Positions 18,728 through 60,476 of a stretch of DNA of 64,000 nt are shown one piece after another. The notes under the pieces are model-generated. The model was not told where the DNA came from. It was given only the letters and a program-made list of their open reading frames with translations, and ran no database searches. Source of the stretch: a bacterium. GTDB lineage: Bacteria > Patescibacteriota > Minisyncoccia > UBA6257 > 02-FULL-45-10c. How positions within the stretch are numbered: the first letter of the stretch is position 1; each line of letters starts with the position of its first letter. The stretch is taken from assembly GCA_030700025.1 (NCBI GenBank), contig JAUYKI010000015.1:28623-92622 (forward strand), given 5' to 3'. A program made the position numbers and the translations under genes.

Positions 18728-19852
18728 TTAGTCAGCGGTCTGAATAATTTTTATAAATGCCGCGGCAGAATTCCGAATATCATACCGCTTCACCCAATCC
18801 AATAATAAAATTTTCATTAATGCCAGATCGGATGGTTTTTTATATAATAATGCTTTAACTTTATCAGCAAATTGCCCCGTATCGCCAACTCGCGCCAAAT
18901 AACTATGCATTGGCTCCGGCGTTATCTCCCGAACCCCGCCGATATCGCTCGCCACAAATGGAACTGCGGCCGCCATAGATTCCAATAGAACATGCGGAAA
19001 GCCCTCTTCATCAGACGGCATTATAAACAAATCGGCAGCCGCATAATAATAAGGCAGCTGATTATTCGGCACCCAGCCTAAAAATCGAACTTTATCCAAC
19101 AGTTTGTAATTTGTGATTTGTGATTTAATGCTTTCTCGTTCTGGGCCATCGCCAATTACCACCAATACCGCATTTTCGTCTTGAAGGGCCTTTAATATTT
19201 CAGGCAAATAATGCGCTCCTTTACGTTGGGATAAACGATGAACAAAAAGCAAAACTTTGGCGTCTTCCGGAATTTTTAATTCTTGTTTTATTTCTCCAAT
19301 TTTGATTTTTGATTTTTGATTTTTGATTTTTTCTATATCTACCCAGTTAGGCATGACTTTAATTTTATTCTCGCGAATAGCATAATGCGCGGCATACTCT
19401 TTTTTTAAGCTTTCCGTTCCGGTAACTAGAAAATCGATAAATCGATACGCCAATCTCTCTAATTGATTTCTTAAAAAATTCTTCCGGTAAAGCCACGGCA
19501 AGCCGCAATTCCAATAAAAAACTTTTCCTCCCAAAATCCCGCTGATTAACGACGCGTTAAAAGCGGCGACGAAAGAATAGTGGATATAAAAATTTTGGCA
19601 GCCGGACATCCGCGCCTTCGCCAAAAGAATAAGATTTTCCAGCCAGCGTAACGGGAGAAAATGGAATTTTTGAATAAACTTTTTAAACCCCGCCGAGTCC
19701 CCCTTCCCCCTTTCCGCAATCAAAAAAATATCGGCGCTTTGAGCTAGCAAATCCAACATCTTATATATTGAATAAAAGTGAGTTGCCGTTTCCAGGTTAT
19801 ATTCCGGCACAACAAAGCAAATTTTCAGTTTTTCCATATGGCTAGCGGGCAT
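18728..19852 (-). CDS. GT4 family (GT-B) glycosyltransferase
   Basis: The C-terminal domain has the ...FIMPS.EEGFP...ESMA... (E-x7-E) region. The gene contains two heptanucleotide arrays. Confidence 0.75.
   Translation of the reverse strand: MPASHMEKLKICFVVPEYNLETATHFYSIYKMLDLLAQSADIFLIAERGKGDSAGFKKFIQKFHFLPLRWLENLILLAKARMSGCQNFYIHYSFVAAFNASLISGILGGKVFYWNCGLPWLYRKNFLRNQLERLAYRFIDFLVTGTESLKKEYAAHYAIRENKIKVMPNWVDIEKIKNQKSKIKIGEIKQELKIPEDAKVLLFVHRLSQRKGAHYLPEILKALQDENAVLVVIGDGPERESIKSQITNYKLLDKVRFLGWVPNNQLPYYYAAADLFIMPSDEEGFPHVLLESMAAAVPFVASDIGGVREITPEPMHSYLARVGDTGQFADKVKALLYKKPSDLALMKILLLDWVKRYDIRNSAAAFIKIIQTAD
19103..19126. repeat. Heptanucleotide tandem array (TTTGTRA)x3 inside the GT4 coding sequence, encoding KSQITNYKL
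   Basis: Read directly; translation confirmed in frame. Confidence 0.85.
19301..19328. repeat. Heptanucleotide tandem array (TTTGATT)x4 inside the GT4 coding sequence, encoding KIKNQKSKIKI
   Basis: Read directly; translation confirmed in frame. Confidence 0.9.
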
Positions 19853-30723: not shown

Positions 30724-31929
30724 TTATTTTACCATCTTTACGGCACCAGCCGATTCTAGGCAATCCCTGTATTGTTTCCAATATTCTTCCTGCTTAGGCC
30801 AATTTTGCAATAACCTTAAAGCATTCTGTTTAAATTCCTCTCTTTTAAAAGAGTTTTCTTTCGATTCTAAAATCGCCTTGGCGAGCGCCCGCTCATCGCC
30901 CACCGGAACCACCCAGCCATCCAAATCATCAATCAATAATTCTCCCGCCAAACCAACGTCCGTCATAACTACGGGCAAGCCCGCCGCCATCGCCTCCACA
31001 ATCGTCCGTCCGTAACCTTCATAATTAGAAGTCAGTAAAAAAATATCAGCTGTTTTATAATAAGAAGCCAGATCATCAGTCCAGGGCTCAAGAATAATAT
31101 TATTTTGTAATTTGTAATTTGTAATTTGTAATTTAAGCGCTTCGTGTTTTGGTCCATTGCCCACTATTACCAATAGTGATTTAGGGTATTTCTCCGCCAC
31201 CTCCCGCATGGCCTCAATTCCCAAGCCAATATTTTTTTCTTGAGTCAGCCGGGAAGCCATCAAAATAATAAAATCGCGATCGGAATATTTTTGGCGCAAA
31301 TCTATTTTTATTTTAGCTGTTTGAATTTTTTTAACATCAACTAAAATCGGCAATACCGATATGGGGCGTAAGGTATGGGGTTTAGGATATAGGGCTAATA
31401 ATGATTGCTTGATTCGCTCACTAACAACCCGGATGCCGTCCGCGCGGGGAAGTAAAAATTTAGCCAGCCAAACCCGCAGTTTATTTTTGAAAGATTCACT
31501 ATAAAAATAAGGGCTGAAAATATCGGCGTGTATTTGCAGCTGCAAAGACAAATTGAATTTCTTTTTCAAACACCAGCCGACTAATCCCGTTTCAAAAGGA
31601 TCCTGCGCGCTTATAGCGCAATTTCTAATTTCTAATTCCCAATTTCTAATGATATTTTTCCCGATTTTATACGCGTCCCAAAAATACAATATCCGGAAGC
31701 GCGTATTGGTGGGATAAGTAAAAACATTCTCGCTAATTTGTAATTTAAAATTTATTTGTGATTTGTCCTGCCTGCCGATAAGCATGGGATTTGTGATTTG
31801 TGATTTTCGTGTTGCAAACACGATTATGTGCAGTTCTTCAAAAAGCGGGCCGTAATTGCCAATCCTTTTCCTGGCTTCAGACTTTTCATCCAATATTTGT
31901 TTATCGGTAGAGAACATTAAAACTTTCAT
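30724..31929 (-). CDS. GT4 family glycosyltransferase
   Basis: ...IFLLTSNYEGYGRTIVEAMAAGLPVV... region. Contains three heptanucleotide arrays. The start was moved to MKVLMF (ATGA overlap with the upstream gene). Confidence 0.75.
   Translation of the reverse strand: MKVLMFSTDKQILDEKSEARKRIGNYGPLFEELHIIVFATRKSQITNPMLIGRQDKSQINFKLQISENVFTYPTNTRFRILYFWDAYKIGKNIIRNWELEIRNCAISAQDPFETGLVGWCLKKKFNLSLQLQIHADIFSPYFYSESFKNKLRVWLAKFLLPRADGIRVVSERIKQSLLALYPKPHTLRPISVLPILVDVKKIQTAKIKIDLRQKYSDRDFIILMASRLTQEKNIGLGIEAMREVAEKYPKSLLVIVGNGPKHEALKLQITNYKLQNNIILEPWTDDLASYYKTADIFLLTSNYEGYGRTIVEAMAAGLPVVMTDVGLAGELLIDDLDGWVVPVGDERALAKAILESKENSFKREEFKQNALRLLQNWPKQEEYWKQYRDCLESAGAVKMVK
31104..31134. repeat. Heptanucleotide tandem array (TTTGTAA)x4 within the coding sequence, encoding KLQITNYKLQ
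   Basis: Read directly; translation confirmed. Confidence 0.9.
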
Positions 31930-33080
31930 AGATTTTTCCATATCTCTATATATCCATTAATCATCATATTGTGGGTATAAGCCATTTCTTTTTTTCGCGC
32001 TAATTCTCCCAAACGCTGGCGCAACGATTCATCAGAAATAATATCAATAAGCGTCCGCCTTAACGCGTTATAGTCATTATACGGAACCAAAAGTCCGGTT
32101 TGACCGTGAATTACAATTTCAGGATTACCGCCAACGTCCGTAGTAACTACCGGCAATCCTAAGGCCTGAGCTTCCCGTATCTGATGCGAAAGTCCTTCGT
32201 AGCCGGTATTAAGAACAAATACATCGGACGCTTTCAAATATTTTATCAATTCATTTTTAGGCAACGAACCCATTAATACCGCATTCTTTTCAATTCTGAG
32301 CTTATTAATTAAACTCTCTAAATTTGCCCGTTCCGGCCCATCGCCGATAATAAACAAATGTAAATCGGAAAATTTATTCTTTAAATCAGCCACAATTTTT
32401 ATTAACATATCAAAACCCTTCCATGGCACCAAGCGGCCGACCGAAACCAAAATAGTTCCTTGTAATCCTAAAATTCCCCTTTCCAAATCTTTGCCGCTGG
32501 TGGAAATCATCGGGGAAACCGCATTTAAGATAACGTTTATCTTTTCTGGCGCCACTCCCCAACGAACCACTATTTTTTTTAAATATTCGCTGGGAACAAT
32601 TACCAAATCCGAACCATCGGCTACCCAGCTCCGAATCCACTTCAATCCCTCCACCACCCAATGATATTTTTTCTTGGTATCCTGAAAGTCATCAATAGAA
32701 TCCTGAACTCTAAACCGCTGCGCTCCCTGTTCCCAGGCGTAATCACCGACTGCTTTTAAGATAAACTTCCGATGCAAGAATTTATTCGCTAAAAATGCTG
32801 GCAAGCCCGCGCTAACCGGATCTTGGGCAAAAATAATATCCGCTTTCCGCCCCAGCTGCCACACTTTTAAAAAATAAATAAAGTGTCGTAATCCCTTGGG
32901 AATGTGGCGGGAAACCCTGCGAATATTAGACGGGTCGCCTTTTTGAGATTCTCCATAAGAAAGCGCGATTACTTTAAAACCCCGCTTCGGCAATTCTTCC
33001 AAAAGCAATTTAGTAAAAGTTGCCGGCCCTCCGATATCCGGCGGAAAAATTCCTGTAGCGATTAAAATTGTTCTGGCCAT
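31926..33080 (-). CDS. GT4 family glycosyltransferase
   Basis: ...VFVLNTGYEGLSHQIREAQALGLPVV... region. Confidence 0.75.
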   Translation of the reverse strand: MARTILIATGIFPPDIGGPATFTKLLLEELPKRGFKVIALSYGESQKGDPSNIRRVSRHIPKGLRHFIYFLKVWQLGRKADIIFAQDPVSAGLPAFLANKFLHRKFILKAVGDYAWEQGAQRFRVQDSIDDFQDTKKKYHWVVEGLKWIRSWVADGSDLVIVPSEYLKKIVVRWGVAPEKINVILNAVSPMISTSGKDLERGILGLQGTILVSVGRLVPWKGFDMLIKIVADLKNKFSDLHLFIIGDGPERANLESLINKLRIEKNAVLMGSLPKNELIKYLKASDVFVLNTGYEGLSHQIREAQALGLPVVTTDVGGNPEIVIHGQTGLLVPYNDYNALRRTLIDIISDESLRQRLGELARKKEMAYTHNMMINGYIEIWKNL

Positions 33081-34300: not shown

Positions 34301-35428
34301 ATGAATACCAAGATAAAAGTTCTCTACGCCATAACCAAAACCGACCTGGGCGGCGCCCAGAAGTACGTTTCCGATTTAGCGGCTAATTTAGACCGCCAAC
34401 GGTTTGAGGCTAAAATAATATATGGCGGCCAAGACTTAAGATGGCTTTCCAACCGAGTCTGGCCATGGGCTTTATTTCTAAATGATTGGCTGGCGATTTT
34501 AGAATTGCGAAAATTCTACAAAAAAGAACAGCCCCAAATTGTCCACCTTAATAGTTCTAAGGCGGGAATTATCGGTTCCTTAGCGGCTATTTTAATTTCG
34601 CCGCGCCCCAAAATTATTTTTACCGCCCATGGATGGGTATTTAATCCTACCAACGCCCTGTCATTGGCCGTTCGCTGGTTTTATATCTTATTGCATAAAA
34701 TTGCGGCATTCTTCCAAGATCATATTATCTGCGTTTCAGAATACGATCATCAATTAGCGCTGCGCTATCATATCGCGCCTCCAAAAAAAATTACCACTAT
34801 TCACAATGGCATTGATTCCGGATTAAAGTTTTTGGATAAAGAAAGCGCCAAACGGGACATTATTAAAATAATTCCAAATTCTAAATTCCAGATTCTAGAT
34901 TCTAAATTGCCCTGGATTGGCTCCATCGGCCGGTTAGTCAAAGAAAAAAATTATGAAACCCTGATTGAAGCCGCCGCGATAATACCCAATGCTTGCTTTT
35001 TTATTATCGGGAGCGGATCAGAACAACGTAATTTAGAATCCCGAATTAAAAATTTAAAACTAGAAAAGCGGTTTTTCTTGCTTAACCCATCGGGCAATGA
35101 TGCCCAATATTTAAAAGCTTTCGATATTTTTGCCATGTCCTCCATCAAAGAGGGGTTGCCCTATATCCTCATGGAAGCGATGCTGGCAGAACGCCCCATA
35201 ATTATTACGGAGGCGGGCGGCATGCCGGAGATGATCAAAAACCACGAAAATGGATTAATGGTGGCCCAAAAAAATCCTAAAATGCTCGCTCAAGCAATAA
35301 GCGGATTATTAGAAAATCCGGCCATCGCCCAATCTTTAAGCCAAACGGGCAAAAAAGTGGTTCGGGATAAATTTAGTTTGCAAAAAATGATTTTCGAAAC
35401 AAAACAGGTATATCAAAACCTGCTATAA
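34301..35428 (+). CDS. GT4 family glycosyltransferase
   Basis: ...IFAMSSIKEGLPYILMEAMLAERPII... region. Contains a heptanucleotide array. Confidence 0.75.
   Translation: MNTKIKVLYAITKTDLGGAQKYVSDLAANLDRQRFEAKIIYGGQDLRWLSNRVWPWALFLNDWLAILELRKFYKKEQPQIVHLNSSKAGIIGSLAAILISPRPKIIFTAHGWVFNPTNALSLAVRWFYILLHKIAAFFQDHIICVSEYDHQLALRYHIAPPKKITTIHNGIDSGLKFLDKESAKRDIIKIIPNSKFQILDSKLPWIGSIGRLVKEKNYETLIEAAAIIPNACFFIIGSGSEQRNLESRIKNLKLEKRFFLLNPSGNDAQYLKAFDIFAMSSIKEGLPYILMEAMLAERPIIITEAGGMPEMIKNHENGLMVAQKNPKMLAQAISGLLENPAIAQSLSQTGKKVVRDKFSLQKMIFETKQVYQNLL
34873..34907. repeat. Degenerate heptanucleotide tandem array (CYARATT)x5 within the coding sequence, encoding PNSKFQILDSKL
   Basis: Read directly; translation confirmed. 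Confidence 0.85.
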
Positions 35429-53609: not shown

Positions 53610-54863
53610 TTAATTAGACGACTTTAATATAAAGTATAACACATCCGATAATTTTTCAGTATCTTTTTTACTCGTTCCCCGGCCGAAAGTAATCCGCAAT
53701 CCGGCGCTGGCCCGCTGGTCCGAATAGCCCAAAGCTTTTAAAACATGCGATGGCTTGCAAATCCGGGCGGCGCAAGCCGCGCCCGGGGAAACCGCGAATC
53801 CTGCCAAATCCAGCTTGATAATTAAATCCTGGGCCGTTTCTTGGCCGGGAAAATATAAATTAACATTATTCGGCAAACGCCTTTCTAAATCCCCGTTTAA
53901 TTCTGCTTTGGGCAAAATAGTTTTAATCCGGTTCAAAAAATATTTTTGTAAATCCCTTAATCGCTTGGCTTCTTTGGCCCGATCCCTATCGGCAATTTCC
54001 ATAGCCTTGGCAAAGCCAATAATGCCGGGAACATTCTCTGTTCCTCCGCGCAATCCCGATTCCTGTCCGCCGCCGGTAATCAGCGGTTGTACCGCTGAAA
54101 AATCCGAAATTCGAATATCGAAATTCGAAATGTTTTGAGTTTTAGATTTTGAATTTTGAATTTGTTTGTGATTTGTGATTTGGAATTTGGAATTTTTCCT
54201 GACATAGAGAAGCCCAACTCCTTTGGGCCCGTAAATTTTTTGAGAAGATAAAGTCATTAAATCTACTCCCAGCCGCTGAACATTGCAATCTAAATAATTA
54301 AATGCCTGGGCCGCGTCAGTATGAAAAAGCGGATATCCGCCGTTAGCCGCCTTGTTTTTCTTGAATTCCGAAATTATTTTGCTGATTTCCAGAATCGGCT
54401 GGATTGTTCCGACTTCATTATTGGCATACATTATGGAAACTAAAATAGTCCGGTCGTCCAAAGCAATTCGGAATTTTTTTAAATCCACAATTCCCTTTTT
54501 ATCTACCGGCAAATAAACCACTTCCACGCCATCCCTCTCCAGCTCTAAACAAGTTTCTAAAATTGATTCGTGTTCCACCGCGGAGATAATAATTTTCGGA
54601 CGGCTGATATTTTTAACCGCGCCCCGCAACGCCAAATTATTCGCCTCGGTCGCTCCGGAAGTAAAAACTATTTCTTTATAATGGCATCCTAAAATCTCCG
54701 CGGCCTTCTGGCGGGCATTAAATACCGCCGCCGACGCTTCCTGGCCAAACCAATGCAAAGCCCCGGGATTGCCGTAGATTTTTCTAAAATACGGCCGCAT
54801 GGCTTTCTCCGCCCGCGGATCCACGGGTGTCGCCGCCGCGTAATCAAAGTAATGTCTGCGCAT
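53610..54863 (-). CDS. Cysteine desulfurase (IscS/NifS family, class V aminotransferase) carrying an inserted low-complexity loop of about 33 aa
   Basis: SSQKIYGPKGVGLLYVRK (PLP-lysine region) and AVSPGAACAARICKPSHVLKALG (catalytic Cys loop). The insert between YVRK and GGGQE is encoded entirely by a heptamer array. Confidence 0.8.
   Translation of the reverse strand: MRRHYFDYAAATPVDPRAEKAMRPYFRKIYGNPGALHWFGQEASAAVFNARQKAAEILGCHYKEIVFTSGATEANNLALRGAVKNISRPKIIISAVEHESILETCLELERDGVEVVYLPVDKKGIVDLKKFRIALDDRTILVSIMYANNEVGTIQPILEISKIISEFKKNKAANGGYPLFHTDAAQAFNYLDCNVQRLGVDLMTLSSQKIYGPKGVGLLYVRKNSKFQITNHKQIQNSKSKTQNISNFDIRISDFSAVQPLITGGGQESGLRGGTENVPGIIGFAKAMEIADRDRAKEAKRLRDLQKYFLNRIKTILPKAELNGDLERRLPNNVNLYFPGQETAQDLIIKLDLAGFAVSPGAACAARICKPSHVLKALGYSDQRASAGLRITFGRGTSKKDTEKLSDVLYFILKSSN
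54097..54201. repeat. Array of about 15 phased heptanucleotide units (sub-families TCGAAAT, RTTTTGA, TGTGATT, TGGAATT), 105 nt in total, encoding a 35-aa insertion in the cysteine desulfurase
   Basis: Units parsed directly. The 7-nt phase is kept across all sub-families. The translation is KNSKFQITNHKQIQNSKSKTQNISNFDIRISDFS. Confidence 0.85.
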
Positions 54864-54867
54864 AATT

Positions 54868-55929
54868 TTATTGTAACTCATTCAATTGTTTTTGGATTTT
54901 ATATCCTTGGCAATGTTTTAACAAGCCCAAATAAGATTGTAAATTTTTGCCATTAATTTTTCTCAATAACCTTCTTTTTGTCTTAGTTCTTAAAATTCTA
55001 TAGTGGGGTCTTGCGATATATCCTAAAAAATCAATTCCTTGGGAAAATTTCCGAATAATTATCTTATTCGGATGTAGGGTTAAATTTAAATTATCCGCTA
55101 AAAACTTGCTTACTTTATCTGTAATTCCTATAAAATTCTCTTTTGTATCGCTTAAAACAACAAAGTCGTCGCAATAACGGAGATAATGTTTAATTTTTAA
55201 TTTATGCTTAATAAATTGGTCCAATTCATTTAAATAGATGTTGGCAAAAAGCTGGCTGGTTACGTTGCCAAGTGGCAATCCTTTGTCCGGATTTTTTTCA
55301 AAACTTTTTATAACTTTTTCAATAAGCCAAATGTCTTTTGGGTCAAAAATTTTCTTTTTGATTAAATTCAATAAAATTTGCTGGTCAATAGAATCAAAAA
55401 ACTTACTGATATCGCACTTTAAAACAAAAACCGGCTTGCAGTAATTCTTGCTCAATTTCCGAAGAAAAATTCCTAACCGTTCTACCGCGATATGCGTCCC
55501 CTTGCCCAGCCGCGATGAATCAGAATCGTAAATAAAACCCTTATCAAAAATCACGTATAAAATCCGAAAAATTGCTTGGTGCAAGACCCGGTCTCGGACG
55601 CTGGCTTTATGAATATGCCGCAATTTCGGGTCTTGAACATAAAAAGCTGTGTATAAATCAGGTTTGTAAATTTTATCCTTTAATTCCTGATGAAGTTGAA
55701 ATAAATTGTCTTCCAGATTAAACTCAAATTGCTGAACGTCCGATTTTTTCCTTTTTCCGCGCCGGAATTCTTTCCACGCTAAAAATAAATTTTCCAGCGA
55801 AATTATCCGTTCAAAAATATTATGACTTTTAATACCCCCCCCCCTCCAAATTTGCCTCTGATTCATAAGCTTGATGAATTCTATCGCAATATCTATCTGC
55901 TCGGCAAGCAAATTCCGAAACGGGATCAT
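54868..55929 (-). CDS. Diversity-generating retroelement (DGR) reverse transcriptase
   Basis: RT motifs 1–7 are present. These include DISKFFDSID and the DGR-type motif 4 GLPLGNVTSQLFANIYL (I/LGxxxSQ where other RTs have QGxxxSP). Also present are YLRYCDDFVV (YxDD) and LHPNKIIIRKFSQGIDFLGY. Similarity is closest to Bordetella phage bRT as recalled from memory. The true start is probably internal (about 55866) or near the G10 tract. Confidence 0.9.
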   Translation of the reverse strand: MIPFRNLLAEQIDIAIEFIKLMNQRQIWRGGGIKSHNIFERIISLENLFLAWKEFRRGKRKKSDVQQFEFNLEDNLFQLHQELKDKIYKPDLYTAFYVQDPKLRHIHKASVRDRVLHQAIFRILYVIFDKGFIYDSDSSRLGKGTHIAVERLGIFLRKLSKNYCKPVFVLKCDISKFFDSIDQQILLNLIKKKIFDPKDIWLIEKVIKSFEKNPDKGLPLGNVTSQLFANIYLNELDQFIKHKLKIKHYLRYCDDFVVLSDTKENFIGITDKVSKFLADNLNLTLHPNKIIIRKFSQGIDFLGYIARPHYRILRTKTKRRLLRKINGKNLQSYLGLLKHCQGYKIQKQLNELQ

Positions 55930-56181
55930 TTTGGAATTTTTTTGAAAATTGAAAATGTTTTACTAGATGTTCTCGAATTGATTATTACTGCTTCCCTAGA
56001 AACTAAAATTAATAAAATTTCGCCGTTGAATTCTGCTCGGATTAAAATAGAAATCCTAAAACGGCTGATTAGATTGATACAGGAATTTAAAATCATTGAA
56101 GCGAATAAATATCTTACGTTAGAAAAAGACCTTCAAGAAATTTCCAAAATGATCAACGGCTGGATTAAATACTTAAAATAA
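55822..56181 (+). CDS. DGR accessory variability determinant (Avd-like four-helix-bundle protein)
   Basis: 119 aa. LIHKLDEFYRNIYLLGKQIPKRDHFGIFLKIENVLLDVLELIITA aligns with Bordetella bAvd LIVERYERVISYLYPIAQSIPRKHGVAREMFLKCLLGQVELFIVA. The C-terminal EISKMINGWIKYLK aligns with EVGRILGSWIARV. The bAvd sequence is recalled from memory. The ORF is on the opposite strand to the RT and target. Confidence 0.65.
   Translation: MTFNTPPPPNLPLIHKLDEFYRNIYLLGKQIPKRDHFGIFLKIENVLLDVLELIITASLETKINKISPLNSARIKIEILKRLIRLIQEFKIIEANKYLTLEKDLQEISKMINGWIKYLK
55836..55845. repeat. Homopolymeric C10 (G10 on the RT strand) tract in the region shared by the 5' ends of the RT and Avd ORFs
   Basis: Counted directly. 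It encodes PPPP in Avd and RGGG in the RT ORF. Confidence 0.9.
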
Positions 56182-56204
56182 ATAACTCCGATTAAGGAGT
56201 TATT
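56181..56204. other. 9-bp stem hairpin (aataactcc-GATTAA-ggagttatt) between the Avd stop and the TR
   Basis: Read directly. Confidence 0.4.
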
Positions 56205-56208
56205 TATA

Positions 56209-56336
56209 GAAACTTCTGCGCGAGTCCGCAAATTACCATTGGCGTTGTCCGGATTGTACCAGTTGACCTTGAGCTTGCGATTGATCGGATTCCAATTCAC
56301 GTTCGGCACGTTGCCATTAGGATTGCGCGAACCAGC
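56209..56336 (-). other. DGR template repeat (TR), 128 nt, coding-sense on the minus strand
   Basis: Co-oriented near-identical copy of the VR. All 24 TR/VR differences sit at TR adenines. In the target frame it encodes AGSRNPNGNVPNVNWNPINRKLKVNWYNPDNANGNLRTRAEVS, with 13 AAY codons. Confidence 0.85.
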
Positions 56337-56553
56337 TTTTGCTTGTCTCCTGCTATATCACCGATAATCTTATAACAAAATTATCTGAGTTTTCCGGACA
56401 CACCGGATTTATTTTTGTAGCATTCACCAACGGCGAAACCTACACCAAAAACAAGCAAGCAGTTTCTGTTATTTGTGGTAAATCACTATCCGCCGTAGGC
56501 GGACTGATTATATTAACCGTAATTAGAATAAATCAATTTTGACCAAAAGAAAA

Positions 56554-56580
56554 TCCCCAGTCGCCTTTGGCGACTGGGGA
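56554..56580 (-). terminator. 12-bp GC-rich hairpin (tccccagtcgcc-TTT-ggcgactgggga) followed by a T-run on the minus strand, about 30 nt after the target stop
   Basis: Read directly. It could be the target-gene terminator, the DGR structure downstream of the VR, or both. Confidence 0.6.
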
Positions 56581-56609
56581 TTAAGGGTTCAAGTCAAAAG
56601 ATTCAAGGG

Positions 56610-57347
56610 TTAAACAGAAACTACTGCGCGAGCCCGCAAATCACCACTGGCGCTGCCCGGACCGTACCAGCCGACCCCGAGCCAGCGACCGATCGGACCC
56701 CAATCCACGCACGGCACGCTGCCATCAGGATAGCGCGAACCAGCGCAAAGTGTCCAATTCTTTTCATCCAGGTGTTTATTAGTTTCCAGGAAATACTTGA
56801 GTTCCAGGAGCAGACGCTCTTCCAGGGCGATGCCATTGATTTGCTCTTTGGCCAAGTCATTGGCTGACTTGTTCTTGAGCTCTTCGTCGGCTTCCTGGCG
56901 GTCTCTGACCCAGATGGCGTAGGTTTCGCCGGTGTTTCGGACCGAAGTGATGGAATTGAGATTGTTCGTGCAGGTCCAAACGCTCATGTGTTTCCTTAGG
57001 ACTTGGACAATCTGATTGAGGGTCAATCCCTTGGCAACGACAATCAACCAATCAATGCCCGGAACACGCTTTGGGGGCTGGATTTTTGAGATATCCAGCT
57101 CAATGCCAAATTCCTGGCGGTAGAGGGTTTGCCAGGCGCGAAGCATTGCTCGCACACTCTGGCCGGGTCGGGTCTGCTTTTCTTTGATGACAGAAGCTGT
57201 TGCTTCCGCGAAATTCGGATTCTCCTTAATTCGCTGAAGCGCCCCGGACACCTGATCCGGATCGCGCTTGCCATCCCGCACCAGCTCCAGCACCGTAGTC
57301 ACCAAATCCAGCAGCCGCGCTTTCTTTCGTTCGGTTCTTGCGAACAT
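56610..57347 (-). CDS. DGR target (variable) protein. The N-terminal region is uncharacterised. The C-terminal region ends in the VR and may be C-type-lectin/FGE-like.
   Basis: The C-terminus is ...NWTLCAGSRYPDGSVPCVDWGPIGRWLGVGWYGPGSASGDLRARAVVSV. The start was set at ATG 57347 (MFARTERKK), preceded by AAGGAG. The gene is markedly GC-richer than the neighbouring RT and Avd. Confidence 0.8.
   Translation of the reverse strand: MFARTERKKARLLDLVTTVLELVRDGKRDPDQVSGALQRIKENPNFAEATASVIKEKQTRPGQSVRAMLRAWQTLYRQEFGIELDISKIQPPKRVPGIDWLIVVAKGLTLNQIVQVLRKHMSVWTCTNNLNSITSVRNTGETYAIWVRDRQEADEELKNKSANDLAKEQINGIALEERLLLELKYFLETNKHLDEKNWTLCAGSRYPDGSVPCVDWGPIGRWLGVGWYGPGSASGDLRARAVVSV
56617..56744 (-). other. 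DGR variable repeat (VR) forming the last 43 codons of the target gene
   Basis: 104 of 128 positions are identical to the TR. All 24 mismatches are at TR adenines (A to G/T/C in the coding sense). It ends 5 nt before the stop. Confidence 0.85.
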
Positions 57348-57426
57348 TTTTGTTCTCCTTAGTTCTTTCACATCTGTCCAAATCCGGTTATCGCGGATTG
57401 GTATCTGATTTTGAAAGAACGTTCCT

Positions 57427-58211: not shown

Positions 58212-58778
58212 ATGGATAAATTAGTCTTAGACATAGAAACTAAAAATACTTTTGCCGAAGTCGGCGGGCAAGAAAACATCCACAAATTGGAGGTATCTTT
58301 TGTCGGCGTTTATTCTTACAACCAAAACCAATATTTTTCTTTTTTTGAAAATGAATTGGATAAGCTGGGCCCAATGCTCCAAAGCGCCGGCTTAATAATC
58401 GGATTCTGTTCTAACCGCTTTGACCTGCCGGTTTTAAAAAAACATTACAAATTTAATATCATGTCTCTGGAAAGCCTGGATATTTTGGAAGAAATTGAGG
58501 AAAGGCTCGGCCACCGGATCAGCCTAAACGAATTGGCCTACGCCAATTTGAGAACCCAAAAAACCGCCCACGGATTGGAAGCGATTAAATTTTATAAAGA
58601 AGGCCGGCTGGAAGAATTAAAAAAATATTGCCTGAACGACGTAAAAATCACCAAAGACCTTTATGACCTGGGAATGTCCCAGGGTCACTTAGTCGTTCCC
58701 CAAAGAACTACCGGCGAAATGCAAAAAGTGGAATTTGACTGGCATACCCGATTGCCTTCGGCGTCTACCCTATTTTAA
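58212..58778 (+). CDS. Predicted 3'-5' exonuclease (RNase-H-like / DEDD-type, YprB/PolB-exo-like)
   Basis: N-terminal LVLDIETKNTF (Exo I-like DxE), with later acidic motifs. Confidence 0.4.
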   Translation: MDKLVLDIETKNTFAEVGGQENIHKLEVSFVGVYSYNQNQYFSFFENELDKLGPMLQSAGLIIGFCSNRFDLPVLKKHYKFNIMSLESLDILEEIEERLGHRISLNELAYANLRTQKTAHGLEAIKFYKEGRLEELKKYCLNDVKITKDLYDLGMSQGHLVVPQRTTGEMQKVEFDWHTRLPSASTLF

Positions 58779-59796
58779 AACGCTTTATCCGTTTTAGCTC
58801 CTGATTCAGGAGTTTTTTATTTTTCGCTTCTATATTGATTCTTAAAAGCGGTTCGGTATTGGAAGCTCTAATATTAAACCAGTGGTCCGGAAACTCTGCC
58901 GTTAAGCCATCTAACTTAGAAATTTTCGCTTTTTGTTTTTTATAATATTGTTCTACTCTTTCCAAACTTTTAACTTTTAACTTTTCGCTTTTAACTTTAA
59001 GGTTGATTTCCCCGCTCCGGTAATACTTCGGCGATTTGTCCAGATATTCAGAAACTGGAATGTTTAATTTAGAAACAAAATTTATAATATGAATTGCCGC
59101 TAAAATACCCGAGTCCCAGACCGTGTCTGGTCCGCCTCTGGCGGAAAAATCTGGAAATCCAAAATAATAATGGCCGGAATGTTCCAGGCCCAGCGGAATC
59201 TTTTTCTCCCGCATCAGCTTTTTGAAAAAATAATGGCCGACGCGTGAAACGCTAACTTTTGACTTATAACCATTAACTATTAACTTTCTAATAAGTTGAC
59301 CGGAGATAACGCTGACGATATAAGATTTTGGCTTTAGCTCTTGCAGTAATAAATAACCGGTTTCGTCCGGACTGATTACTCTGCCCAAATTGTCTACCAA
59401 AAACATTCTGTCGCCGTCGGCGTCAAAAATCACGCCCAAGTCCGCGTGGTGTTTTAATACGGCTTTTTGTAGTTGGCTAATCGCTCCCGGCGCCAGCGGA
59501 TTCGGCCCATGCCCGGGAAAATGACCGTCGGGTTTATCGTTGATAAAAACAATTGACAATTGACAATTAACAATTAACTTCCGGAAAAGTTCTTTTAGAA
59601 CTTTTCCGGTTGTGCCGTTGGAACAATCAAAAACTATTTTTAACGGCTTGCCCTGAGCCTGCTTGCCCCGCTGTGGCGGTGGTCGAAGGAGTCTTAAAAA
59701 TCGTTTTAAATACTTAACGTATAAACCCGCGTAATCCATATGATTATTATACAGAAAATAAAAAACTCCGCGCATTACGGAGTTAGGCATAGCCAC
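58765..59796 (-). CDS. Phosphohexomutase (phosphomannomutase/phosphoglucomutase) C-terminal fragment, domains II–IV
   Basis: FDCSNGTTG, FDADGDR (Mg2+ loop), GLEHSGHYYF (sugar-binding loop) and RASNTEP (phosphate-binding loop). Its likely independent start is MDYAGLYVKYLK at about 59738, preceded by TATAAT. Contains three heptamer arrays. Confidence 0.7.
   Translation of the reverse strand: MAMPNSVMRGVFYFLYNNHMDYAGLYVKYLKRFLRLLRPPPQRGKQAQGKPLKIVFDCSNGTTGKVLKELFRKLIVNCQLSIVFINDKPDGHFPGHGPNPLAPGAISQLQKAVLKHHADLGVIFDADGDRMFLVDNLGRVISPDETGYLLLQELKPKSYIVSVISGQLIRKLIVNGYKSKVSVSRVGHYFFKKLMREKKIPLGLEHSGHYYFGFPDFSARGGPDTVWDSGILAAIHIINFVSKLNIPVSEYLDKSPKYYRSGEINLKVKSEKLKVKSLERVEQYYKKQKAKISKLDGLTAEFPDHWFNIRASNTEPLLRINIEAKNKKLLNQELKRIKRFKIG
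58965..58999. repeat. Heptanucleotide tandem array (AACTTTT)x3 plus 2 degenerate units in the phosphohexomutase coding sequence, encoding KVKSEKLKVKS
   Basis: Read directly; translation confirmed. Confidence 0.85.
59551..59578. repeat. Heptanucleotide tandem array (AATTGAC)x2(AATTAAC)x2 in the phosphohexomutase coding sequence, encoding VNCQLSIVF
   Basis: Read directly; translation confirmed. A further phased stretch lies at 59251–59292. Confidence 0.85.
59761..59784 (-). terminator. Hairpin (aactccg-TAATGCG-cggagtt) plus T-run on the minus strand, directly after the small ORF stop
   Basis: 7-bp stem followed by TTTTTTATTTT on the minus strand. Confidence 0.5.
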
Positions 59797-60019
59797 CGGC
59801 TTCTTCTTGCTGGATAGCGCTTAACACTTCTTCTAATTTCCCTTCCCGGATATGGTCAATCGGACGCTGATTGCCGATAAAAGCGTTGTGGCCGTGAAGC
59901 CAATTCAACGCGGTTTCCGGATTATACATATTTAAAAGCCGTTGGAAAATACTCAAAATTCGCAAAGACCTTAAAATCTCTTCTTCCGAGTCCCAGCTTA
60001 AAACTATCTTTTCTCCCAT
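59783..60019 (-). CDS. Small ORF of 78 aa resembling the C-terminal toxin-binding domain of DUF2384 (Xre/MbcA/ParS-type) antitoxins. It is inserted between the two phosphohexomutase fragments.
   Basis: YNPETALNWLHGHNAFIGNQRPIDHIREGKLEEVLSAIQQEEAGGYA fits the DUF2384 pattern A..WL...N.AL.G..PIDLL....G...V...L..IE.G.YA. It has its own GAGGGAGG RBS and a terminator hairpin. Confidence 0.5.
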   Translation of the reverse strand: MGEKIVLSWDSEEEILRSLRILSIFQRLLNMYNPETALNWLHGHNAFIGNQRPIDHIREGKLEEVLSAIQQEEAGGYA

Positions 60020-60089
60020 CTCTGCCTCCCTCGGGCGTCCCGCTTGGCGGGATTAGCTCTACAACTTTCAAGAACAAAATTATTTTAAA

Positions 60090-60476
60090 CTATTTTTTAA
60101 ATAAAAGCAAAATTTCCTTCCCACTAATCGGTTTGGCGTTTTTCCCAACCACCTTCAGCCCGTTAAAATTTTTCGGATTATGGGAAGCCGTAACCATAAT
60201 CCCTCCGCTCGCCTTCAGCTTATTCACCAAAAAATAAAACATGGGGGTTGTTGTCATTCTAACGTTCTTAAGAACGTTAGAATGTTGCAAGCCCTTTAAA
60301 ACCGCCTTATAAAGCGCCGGCGAACTCAAACGCGCGTCATGGGCAACAACTATCCTCTTTCCTAAAAGCTTAGGTAACTTTATCGCTATCGCGGAAACCA
60401 CCCTTTCATTTATCTCTCTCGGGTATTGCCCCCTGATATCATAGGCTTTAAAAATTTTCTCATTCATTACTTCCAT
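60090..60476 (-). CDS. Phosphohexomutase N-terminal fragment (domain I with the active-site serine loop)
   Basis: IFKAYDIRG..., GIMVTASHNP (TASHNP phosphoserine motif). It ends at a TAG about 70 nt upstream of the small ORF. Confidence 0.7.
   Translation of the reverse strand: MEVMNEKIFKAYDIRGQYPREINERVVSAIAIKLPKLLGKRIVVAHDARLSSPALYKAVLKGLQHSNVLKNVRMTTTPMFYFLVNKLKASGGIMVTASHNPKNFNGLKVVGKNAKPISGKEILLLFKK

What the first reader, a model, noticed from the sequence alone, without database searches (positions are those of the whole stretch)
31104..31808. Three heptamer arrays in one GT4 gene; the QITNYKL peptide is shared with a paralogue through the same repeat family
Gene 30724..31929 contains three arrays:
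- (TTTGTAA)x4 at 31104–31134, giving KLQITNYKLQ;
- (ATTTCTA)-type x4 at 31621–31648, giving IIRNWELEIRN;
- (GATTTGT) and (TAATTTR) runs at 31734–31808, giving KSQITN and DKSQINFKLQIS.

KSQITN and QITNYKL also occur in the GT4 gene 18728..19852, encoded there by the related TTTGTRA array. The match suggests either paralogous inheritance of a repeat-encoded inter-domain linker or independent seeding by the same slippage-prone heptamer.
Basis: seen in the sequence. Interest (0 to 1): 0.6.

Follow-up and report, generated by a model that had tools for sequence, protein, structure and literature searches.

The report
Translated 7-base repeats in glycosyltransferase genes
Short tandem repeats of seven bases sit in frame inside a particular cluster of sugar-transferase (GT4) genes of ultra-small Patescibacteria; they stay at the same spots of the protein across many species and gene copies while the repeated seven-base word itself changes, which is unusual for repeats whose unit length is not a multiple of three.

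Summary
The gene (minus strand, 30724..31941) also carries a fourth, decayed array. The window has 14 period-7 arrays against 0.6 expected.

The two GT4 genes are distant paralogues: 28-31% amino-acid identity and 44% nucleotide identity, against 85% inside the array. QITNYKL lies at the homologous helix after the GxGP loop, not in an inter-domain linker.

In 84 related Parcubacteria-type loci (1.25 Mb), period-7 arrays are common and almost confined to three tandem GT4 families. GT4 genes hold 214 arrays in 360 kb; codon-shuffled copies give about 2; all other genes hold 20 in 903 kb. The arrays occupy five fixed helix-end/loop sites. The QITNYKL site carries one in 41/88 orthologues and 40/191 paralogues. 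Units differ between lineages while segment length stays constant.

I found no frameshifted alleles (0/288) and no length polymorphism among strains, so phase variation is not supported.

Best reading: inherited, translated heptanucleotide microsatellites. Copying between neighbouring units keeps them repeat-like, and selection on frame, stop codons and Leu/Tyr anchors constrains them. This is a new variant of a known kind. Why only these GT4 families carry them is unexplained.

The parts
30724..31941 (-). GT4 (GT-B fold) glycosyltransferase gene carrying the arrays. The likely start is ATG at 31929.
   Evidence: ORF. Pfam Glycos_transf_1 at 3.7e-39. E308-x7-E316 is invariant in the orthologue alignment. 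AF2 model has pLDDT 84. Closest solved relative is BshA, 5d00.
31104..31134 (-). Site E array. Coding strand (TTACAAA) x4.4, perfect, encodes KLQITNYKLQ. It forms helix 266-275 plus the loop before strand 282-285.
   Evidence: The same site carries an array in 41/88 orthologues and 40/191 paralogues.
31363..31395 (-). Site C array, decayed. It encodes LYPKPHTLRP at the end of helix 175-184 plus loop 185-193.
   Evidence: Sequence. Orthologues carry CCTAWAC arrays (LYPKPYTLNP) here, in 20/84.
31620..31650 (-). Site B array. Coding strand ATTAGAA-type x4.4, encodes IIRNWELEIRN. The one deviating unit (TGG) sits exactly where a perfect repeat would give an in-frame TAG.
   Evidence: and direct reading. 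Orthologues have IGNWKLEIGN, IHNSKFQIHN, IRNLKLEIRN and IENCKLKIEN at the same site.
31734..31754 (-). Site A array, distal half (AAATTAC/AAATTTT-type). It encodes NFKLQI in a low-confidence loop 42-66 that leads into strand 67-70.
31784..31809 (-). Site A array, proximal half (AAATCAC x2.7, perfect over 31788-31806). It encodes RKSQITNP.
   Evidence: Orthologues read KSQITNHKSQ and KSQIPNPKSQIN.
18728..19852 (-). Paralogous GT4 gene that shares KSQITNYKL.
19101..19127 (-). Site E array of the paralogue (AAATCAC AAATCAC AAATTAC), encodes KSQITNYK.
19297..19334 (-). Second array of the paralogue (AATCAAA x4.6, perfect), encodes EKIKNQKSKIKI.
   Evidence: It falls in the paralogue hot spot at HMM positions 10-32.
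34870..34908 (+). Array (AATTCTA/AATTCCA x5.6) in a third GT4 gene, 34301..35428. It encodes IPNSKFQILDSK.
54100..54196 (-). Compound heptamer arrays (including AAATCAC, AAATTCC, AAATTCA). They form a 31-residue insertion in the cysteine desulfurase gene 53610..54881.
   Evidence: The insertion is absent from 7 homologues.
58963..59579 (-). Three arrays in the phosphomannomutase/phosphoglucomutase ORF 58765..59796, at 58963-58992, 59267-59287 and 59547-59579.

Best explanation
These are translated heptanucleotide microsatellites. Each is a short tandem array (3-5 units, about 21-40 nt) of a 7-nt word, lying in frame inside a specific set of tandemly clustered GT4 glycosyltransferase genes of Parcubacteria-type Patescibacteria.

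Seven is not a multiple of three, so each array is read in all three phases and gives a peptide with a 7-residue period. The arrays sit at a few fixed places in the GT-B fold: the C-terminal part of a surface helix plus the loop into the next beta-strand.

They are inherited at these positions in orthologues and in three paralogous families. I infer that they are kept repeat-like by copying between neighbouring units (slipped-strand or template-switch misalignment). Purifying selection holds the reading frame, the segment length, the absence of stop codons and a few anchor residues (Leu at i and i+7, Tyr).

On this reading, QITNYKL is shared by the two window genes because both carry an array at the same helix, where the allowed units are few ([T/C]TAC core) and codon usage is A-rich. 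It is not shared because the genes are close copies.

The arrays do not behave as on/off phase-variation switches on any timescale visible in the data.

Shown: existence, excess, period specificity, restriction to GT4 clades, positional conservation, unit turnover, length constancy, stop avoidance and the spread of variants to neighbouring units.

Inferred: the homogenising mechanism, the ancestry of the arrays, and their lack of a function of their own.
For: **Excess and period specificity.**
- The window has 14 arrays against 0.6 expected.
- The 84 loci have 153 period-7 arrays against 1 in shuffles; periods 4-6 and 8-12 give 0-10 each.
- GT4 genes have 214 period-7 arrays against about 2 after codon shuffling, and 2-13 for other periods.

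**Restriction.**
- Density is 5.9 arrays per 10 kb in GT4 genes against 0.22 in other genes.
- In 44 array-rich loci, 92/127 genes of three GT4 groups carry arrays, against 3/23 GT4 genes of other groups.

**Fixed sites.** Arrays cluster at five sites. Site E carries one in 41/88 orthologues and 40/191 paralogues. Mean lag-7 match there is 0.45 against about 0.27 for other lags, and control segments show none.

**Structure.** All five sites are helix ends or alpha-to-beta loops.

**Unit turnover at constant length.** Nineteen near-perfect orthologous arrays are in register with different units. The site E segment is 23 residues in 73/82 orthologues, with or without an array.

**Translation constraint.**
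- Sense-strand units contain a stop triplet in 41% of cases, against 76% on the antisense strand.
- Deviations from the unit are 38.5% per base at would-be stop codons against 8.3% elsewhere.

**Local copying.** When two units deviate at the same position they carry the same base in 21/32 cases (p=2e-4). They are adjacent in 14/21 cases against 8.1 expected (p=0.009). Identity decays with distance: 0.855, 0.80, 0.75 and 0.61 at lags 7, 14, 21 and 28.

**Not a switch.** There are 0/288 short or split GT4 ORFs, and all 13 non-ORF arrays are intergenic. No length variation occurs at arrays in 8 clusters of proteins at 90% identity or more, with up to 15 sequences each.

**Background.** Heptanucleotide units are the commonest class of long SSR in bacteria. 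A 7-nt polymerase contact has been proposed as the cause (Mrazek 2007, as summarised in PMC4679880 and PMC4692102).
Against: - Inheritance across paralogues that are only about 28-30% identical requires the arrays to have been kept homogeneous for a very long time. No mechanism that homogenises without changing length has been demonstrated here.
- The stop-avoidance statistic is partly forced, because the arrays were required to lie in open frames.
- The comparison of near-perfect arrays is circular as a test of concerted evolution.
- Arrays also occur in non-GT4 genes of this genome (cysteine desulfurase, PGM) and of a few other low-GC contigs. So new arrays can arise outside GT4.
- The loci were chosen around one array-bearing gene. 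Excluding that orthologue group still leaves 40/191 paralogues with a site E array, but whole genomes were not sampled.
- No read-level data were available, so low-frequency length variants cannot be excluded.
Confidence: 0.55

Rival explanations
1. Recurrent independent origin. A genome-wide bias towards 7-nt slippage creates arrays anywhere, and they survive only at structurally permissive spots. On this view the shared sites and the shared QITNYKL are convergence, not inheritance.
For: - Arrays in the cysteine desulfurase (a 31-aa insertion absent from homologues) and in PGM look young and lineage-specific.
- Some other low-GC contigs have arrays in non-GT4 genes.
- The site constrains the unit to a small vocabulary: 13% of unrelated pairs agree to within 1 mismatch.
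- Arrays at sites A, B and D add length, as local expansions would.
- Heptanucleotide excess is general in bacteria.
Against: - In the same genomes, non-GT4 genes sit only modestly above chance level: 20 arrays in 903 kb against 4-5 in shuffles, and 7 of the 20 come from this window.
- GT4 genes of other groups rarely carry arrays: 3/23 against 92/127. The same fold in the same mutational environment is therefore not enough.
- Particular paralogue families keep the same unit across many genomes, for example KLKVKSEKLKV.
Confidence: 0.2
2. Contingency loci. The non-triplet arrays switch the GT4 genes off and on by gaining or losing one unit, varying the surface glycan. The model is the heptanucleotide repeat of Neisseria pglE.
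For: - The unit length is not a multiple of 3.
- The arrays are concentrated in glycan-synthesis glycosyltransferase genes, which is the classic distribution of contingency loci.
- Perfect tracts exist.
- pglE provides the precedent (PMC7157529).
Against: - 0 of 288 GT4 ORFs are truncated or split, and no array lies at a frame junction.
- There is no length polymorphism at arrays among up to 15 sequences per 90% cluster in 8 clusters.
- The site E segment has the same length in 73/82 species.
- Tracts are short (3-5 units) and often interrupted. There are several per gene, and half of them would give a stop if perfect.
Confidence: 0.1
3. Exchange cassettes. Arrays at homologous sites of tandem GT4 paralogues act as microhomology for gene conversion or recombination between paralogues. 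This would spread arrays and allow segment shuffling.
For: - The 18728-type and 30724-type genes have near-identical site E arrays within the window, within L006 (25/27 nt, including the same stop-avoiding TAT) and within L041. The unit differs between these genomes.
- Units are more alike within a genome than between genomes: 20% against 9.6% agree to within 1 mismatch, permutation p<0.0005.
- The array-bearing groups are neighbouring genes.
Against: - The paired test over six genomes is not significant (p=0.07). Cross-genome pairs can be as similar as same-genome pairs.
- Most same-locus paralogue pairs have different units.
- Flanks beyond the array drop to 44% identity.
- No chimeric genes were detected.
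Confidence: 0.1

Closest known systems
Long simple sequence repeats with heptanucleotide units in prokaryotes (Mrazek, Guo & Shah 2007, as summarised in PMC4679880 and PMC4692102), including cyanobacterial STRR heptamers and Xanthomonas/Nostoc GGGNATC repeats
   Same: Tandem 7-nt units. Period 7 is specifically over-represented relative to neighbouring periods. Slippage is the presumed source.
   Different: - Those repeats are mainly intergenic and under-represented in coding regions. Here about 95% lie in ORFs and are translated.
- Those families use one or a few units genome-wide. Here there are 79 units.
- Here the arrays are confined to particular GT4 gene families and to fixed positions in the protein.
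Phase-variable heptanucleotide repeat in the Neisseria pilin-glycosylation glycosyltransferase gene pglE (PMC7157529)
   Same: A 7-nt tandem repeat inside the coding region of a glycosyltransferase involved in surface glycans.
   Different: pglE switches on and off through copy-number change that is visible between isolates. Here no copy-number variation and no OFF alleles were found. Tracts are only 3-5 units, there are several per gene, and length is conserved between species.
TAACTGA direct repeats of marine Beggiatoaceae, Cyanobacteria and Bacteroidetes (PMC4679880)
   Same: Short runs (2-6 copies) of a heptamer scattered over many loci in particular lineages.
   Different: That is one specific heptamer, mostly just upstream of start codons, proposed to act in translational regulation. 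Here there are many units, inside genes.
Protein-level heptad repeats encoded by 21-nt units, e.g. the C-terminal DDLRVNY repeats of Helicobacter pylori fucosyltransferases (from my own knowledge, not checked here)
   Same: A 7-residue-periodic peptide in a glycosyltransferase.
   Different: There the DNA unit is 21 nt and the copy number varies. Here the DNA unit is 7 nt read in three phases, and the copy number is fixed.

Membership tests
GT4 / GT-B glycosyltransferase (host gene) | Glycos_transf_1 domain above the curated cut-off | tested here: met
   PF00534 at 134 bits against a cut-off of 26.4.
GT4 / GT-B glycosyltransferase (host gene) | E-x7-E motif and two Rossmann-like domains | tested here: met
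   E308 and E316 are invariant in 23 sequences. The AF2 model shows two beta/alpha domains. The closest solved relatives are BshA, PimA and TarM.
Heptanucleotide long SSR / STRR-type repeat | Tandem head-to-tail 7-nt units in excess over chance and over other periods | tested here: met
Heptanucleotide long SSR / STRR-type repeat | Predominantly intergenic location | tested here: not met
   154/160 arrays (13/14 threshold) and 236/249 (12/14 threshold) lie inside long ORFs.
Heptanucleotide long SSR / STRR-type repeat | One or a few unit sequences reused genome-wide | tested here: not met
   There are 79 canonical units among 154 coding arrays. Similarity within a genome is only modestly raised, 20% against 9.6%.
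Phase-variable contingency locus | SSR with a non-triplet unit inside a coding region or promoter | tested here: met
Phase-variable contingency locus | Copy-number polymorphism between closely related strains | tested here: not met
   No length difference at any array in 8 clusters of proteins at 90% identity or more, 2-15 full-length sequences each. Reads were not available.
Phase-variable contingency locus | OFF (frameshifted) alleles present among sequenced genomes | tested here: not met
   0/288 GT4 ORFs are shorter than 300 aa away from contig ends. All 108 array-bearing GT4 ORFs are full length apart from two cut by contig ends. The arrays outside ORFs are intergenic.
Phase-variable contingency locus | Measured high slippage rate | not testable with these tools
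   Needs read-level population data or a reporter assay.
Diversity-generating retroelement target (considered because an RT lies in the window) | Template/variable repeat pair with adenine-specific differences covering the region | tested here: not met
   The window's TR/VR pair is at 56208-56336 and 56616-56744 and targets ORF 56610..57371, not the GT4 genes.

The most novel reading that the evidence does not exclude
The arrays may be the product, or the substrate, of a process directed at this GT4 gene cluster. Such a process would overwrite helix-end/loop segments with 7-nt repeats without changing their length. Candidates are templated short-patch conversion between neighbouring units and between tandem paralogues, or very slow contingency switching. 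Either would give these episymbiotic bacteria a built-in way to vary or reshuffle their surface-glycan enzymes. Their confinement to three GT4 clades, while other GT4 and non-GT4 genes of the same genomes are spared, would then reflect targeting or selection rather than ancestry alone.
Probability: 0.15. Interest if true: 0.85.

Novelty: new variant of a known kind. Interest (0 to 1): 0.6.

Why it matters
Microsatellites whose unit is not a multiple of three are normally purged from coding DNA, or kept only as on/off switches. Here they persist in frame, at fixed structural positions, across dozens of species and three paralogous enzyme families. Their sequence turns over in concert while their length stays fixed.

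If this holds, it has three uses:
- It is a natural system for studying homogenisation of tandem repeats under a reading-frame constraint.
- It marks the helix-end/loop positions of the GT-B fold that tolerate almost arbitrary 7-residue-periodic sequence.
- It warns that peptides such as QITNYKL, KSQITNHKSQ or KLKVKSEKLKV in Patescibacteria proteins are DNA-repeat products, not conserved motifs or evidence of close homology.

The unexplained restriction to one GT4 cluster is directly testable on complete genomes.

Tried and rejected
1. **Frameshift junctions.** For every array outside a long ORF I tested whether removing or adding units restores a long frame. The apparent positives were arrays lying just upstream of the next gene, so all 13 are intergenic.
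2. **Truncated GT4 genes.** None found.
3. **Strain-level length polymorphism in 90% protein clusters.** None found. The short cluster members are contig-end fragments, except one odd fragment, P0124.
4. **Within-genome co-homogenisation of the two paralogue types.** Suggestive in 3 of 6 genomes, but permutation p=0.07.
5. **In-frame 21-nt slippage as the main homogeniser.** Identity decays 7>14>21>28, so this is not supported. An ABBA pattern in 4-unit arrays remains unexplained.
6. **Link to the nearby reverse transcriptase.** It belongs to a separate DGR.
7. **Rfam on the window.** No hit.
8. **Literature.** No paper was found linking heptanucleotide repeats with Patescibacteria/CPR.
9. **Metagenome loci centred on the cysteine desulfurase as a control without GT4.** Most are not close relatives (47% identity or less) and only 2 GT4 genes were present. 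This gives a background rate only: 17 arrays in 786 kb, concentrated in four low-GC contigs.
10. **Chance or assembly artefact.** Rejected. The arrays are shorter than a read, they recur in independent assemblies, and shuffles give about 1% of the observed number.
Full report
**1. The observation**

The minus-strand ORF 30724..31941 (405 aa) is a GT4 glycosyltransferase. The orthologue alignment favours the ATG at 31929 as the start. Pfam Glycos_transf_1 scores 3.7e-39, E308-x7-E316 is invariant, and BshA is the closest solved relative.

- TTTGTAA x4.4, perfect, at 31104-31134 (KLQITNYKLQ)
- AATTTCT x4.4 at 31620-31650 (IIRNWELEIRN)
- a run at 31734-31754 (NFKLQI)
- GATTTGT x2.7, perfect, at 31788-31806 (KSQITN)

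A further, decayed array encodes LYPKPHTLRP at about 31363-31395. Orthologues carry a clear CCTAWAC array there.

The paralogue 18728..19852 encodes IKSQITNYKLL from AAATCAC-AAATCAC-AAATTAC.

The window holds 14 period-7 arrays against 0.6 expected from Markov shuffles. Other periods give essentially none.

**2. The two genes**

The two genes are distant paralogues. BLASTP gives 31% identity over 229 residues. In a codon alignment the nine array codons are 23/27 nt identical, while the rest is 44% identical at the nucleotide level and 28% at the amino-acid level.

The segment is not an inter-domain linker. In the AlphaFold model (pLDDT 84) it is helix 266-275 plus loop 276-281 of the C-terminal Rossmann-like domain, immediately after the GxGP loop. 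It aligns column for column in the two proteins.

**3. Relatives**

The exact protein is known from one MAG contig of 94 kb labelled only 'bacterium'. Its homologues at 50-65% identity come from Harrison-, Moran-, Azam-, Taga-, Portnoy- and Paceibacteria-type Patescibacteria.

I fetched 84 loci (1.25 Mb) around orthologues. Gene order is conserved: several GT4 genes in a row followed by a PMT_2 gene.

Across these loci, period-7 arrays number 153 against 1 in shuffled sequence. Periods 4-6 and 8-12 give 0-10 each. Of 160 arrays, 154 lie in long ORFs. There are 79 different canonical units. On the coding strand the units are A-rich and G-poor.

**4. Confinement to GT4 genes**

The arrays are almost confined to GT4 genes, and within GT4 to particular clades.

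| Gene set | Size | Period-7 arrays | Density per 10 kb | Genes with an array | Codon-shuffled copies |
|---|---|---|---|---|---|
| GT4 genes | 360 kb | 214 | 5.9 | 108/288 | about 2 |
| All other genes | 903 kb | 20 | 0.22 | 17/858 | 4-5 |

- Seven of the 20 arrays in other genes come from this window.
- In non-GT4 genes, periods 6 and 9 are more frequent than period 7, as expected for coding DNA.
- Two of the 17 'other' genes proved to be GT4-like as well.
- Single-linkage clustering gives three large GT4 groups, which are the neighbouring genes of the conserved cluster. All three carry arrays.
- In 44 array-rich loci, 92/127 genes of these groups carry arrays, against 3/23 GT4 genes of other groups.
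- Twenty-eight of the 84 loci, holding 96 GT4 genes, have no array at all. The trait is therefore also lineage-specific.

**5. Fixed positions**

In the alignment of 84 orthologues, arrays fall at five sites (query numbering):

| Site | Query residues | Orthologues with an array | Position in the model |
|---|---|---|---|
| A | 44-70 | 14/82 | loop 42-66 |
| B | 97-108 | 18/46 | end of helix 83-99 plus loop |
| C | 181-194 | 20/84 | end of helix 175-184 plus loop |
| D | 249-255 | 6/84 | end of helix 238-251 plus loop |
| E | 267-281 | 39/82 | helix 266-275 plus loop |

- On an HMM of the C-terminal domain, site E carries an array in 41/88 orthologues and 40/191 paralogues.
- Mean lag-7 identity at site E is 0.45, against 0.25-0.33 for other lags. 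Thirty per cent of genes exceed 0.6 at lag 7, against 0.4% at lag 6 or 9. Three control segments show nothing.
- All five sites are the C-terminal part of a helix plus the loop into the next strand. From general knowledge of Rossmann-type folds, this is the edge of the sheet away from the substrate-binding loops. I did not measure this on the model.

**6. Units change, length does not**

At site E the orthologues show TTACAAA, GCTTCAA, AAAAGTT, TTACTAA, CTACTCA, AATCTCA, GTTACAA, TACTCGC and others. These are often perfect over four units and in the same register.

The segment between anchors is 23 residues in 73 of 82 orthologues, whether or not an array is present. Arrays at sites A, B and D tend to add residues instead.

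Some units are clade-specific: TACTCGC occurs in four Azambacteria-type loci. One paralogue family keeps KLKVKSEKLKV in at least six genomes.

Many units share a [T/C]TAC core, which encodes the Leu and Tyr that array-free orthologues also prefer at these positions. The allowed vocabulary is therefore small. Arrays of unrelated genomes agree to within 1 mismatch, in register, in 13% of pairs.

**7. Signs of translation constraint and of local copying**

- Units contain a stop triplet in some phase in 41% of cases on the sense strand, against 76% on the antisense strand.
- In 94 of 236 arrays a perfect repeat of the consensus unit would give an in-frame stop.
- Deviations from the unit run at 38.5% per base inside those codons, against 8.3% elsewhere. 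This is partly forced by requiring open frames.
- The query's own IRNWELEIRN array is an example. TGG replaces the TAG that a perfect ATTAGAA repeat would give. Orthologues avoid the equivalent stop with TTG or TGT.
- In arrays of 5 or more units, two units that deviate at the same position carry the same base in 21/32 cases (p=2e-4). They are neighbours in 14/21 cases against 8.1 expected (p=0.009).
- Identity falls with distance, 0.855, 0.80, 0.75 and 0.61 at lags 7, 14, 21 and 28. This is what copying between adjacent units predicts.

**8. Not a visible switch**

No GT4 ORF is truncated or split (0/288). All 108 array-bearing ones are full length, except two cut by contig ends. The 13 arrays outside ORFs are intergenic, several of them just upstream of a gene.

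In eight clusters of proteins at 90% identity or more (2-15 full-length sequences from different samples), no array differs in length. The few length differences are at the termini.

**9. Explanation**

I conclude that these are inherited, translated heptanucleotide microsatellites. Copying between neighbouring units by misalignment keeps them repeat-like. Selection on frame, length, stops and anchor residues constrains them.

The mechanism of homogenisation without net length change is inferred, not shown. Candidates are transient misalignment with realignment, or paired gain and loss.

The shared QITNYKL follows from both genes having an array at site E under the same constraints and the same A-rich codon usage.

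Three rivals remain:
- Recurrent independent origin at permissive sites. The young arrays in the cysteine desulfurase and in PGM support it. The clade restriction argues against it.
- Contingency switching. The GT distribution and the pglE precedent (PMC7157529) support it. The absence of any variation argues against it.
- Exchange between tandem paralogues. It is suggestive in the window, L006 and L041, but p=0.07.

**10. Known context and novelty**

An excess of heptanucleotide SSRs in bacteria, and the idea of a 7-nt polymerase contact, are published. Those repeats are described as mainly intergenic (PMC4679880, PMC4692102).

I found no report of heptanucleotide repeats in Patescibacteria.

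The in-frame, position-conserved, length-invariant, GT4-clade-restricted form seen here is a new variant of a known kind. Its restriction to three GT4 families is unexplained.

Noticed in passing
window 54868-57371 (minus strand): A complete diversity-generating retroelement:
- reverse transcriptase 54868..55929 (NCBIfam places it only as group-II-like, below cut-off);
- template repeat at about 56208-56336;
- variable repeat at about 56616-56744, at the 3' end of ORF 56610..57371 (253 aa, no Pfam hit).

All of the roughly 26 differences in the 129-nt repeat fall at adenines of the template copy.
   Followed up: yes
window 58765-60476 (minus strand): The phosphomannomutase/phosphoglucomutase gene is split. 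Domain I is a separate ORF (60090..60476) that ends in a stop. A spacer of about 300 nt follows, containing a 78-aa ORF (59783..60019) with a weak Xre/MbcA/ParS antitoxin C-terminal domain hit. Domains II-IV then follow (58765..59796). No Rfam intron was found.
   Followed up: partly
window 54100-54196 in gene 53610..54881: The NifS/IscS-type cysteine desulfurase carries a 31-residue insertion (SKFQITNHKQIQNSKSKTQNISNFDIRISDF) built wholly from heptamer arrays. It lies in a hairpin loop after the PLP-lysine region and is absent from 7 homologues. Here an array has expanded in a housekeeping gene.
   Followed up: yes
L006 10473.. and L008 10542.. (plus strand): In two genomes the 30724-type and 18728-type GT4 genes are fused into one ORF, of 779 and 748 aa. 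In L006 both halves carry nearly the same site E array (RIKNYEL, 25/27 nt), including the same stop-avoiding TAT.
   Followed up: partly
L014 8874-8907; L051 152-173 and 1328-1352; L069 9478-9505; L037 585-607: A minority of arrays are intergenic. They lie within a few tens of bases upstream of the next gene of the GT4 cluster, in possible promoter or 5'-UTR positions.
   Followed up: no
4-unit arrays across all loci: Where a unit position is split 2:2 among four units, the pattern ABBA dominates (20, against 3 ABAB and 3 AABB). Units 21 nt apart, which share a codon phase, therefore stay alike. The cause was not established; it could be phase-specific selection or in-frame events.
   Followed up: partly
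protein P0124 (member of the P0016 cluster): This 190-aa fragment from a short-read contig follows the reference to residue 172, which is inside the site C array. It then continues as an out-of-frame reading of DNA just upstream of site E. This is either a deletion of about 250 nt or a misassembly.
   Followed up: no
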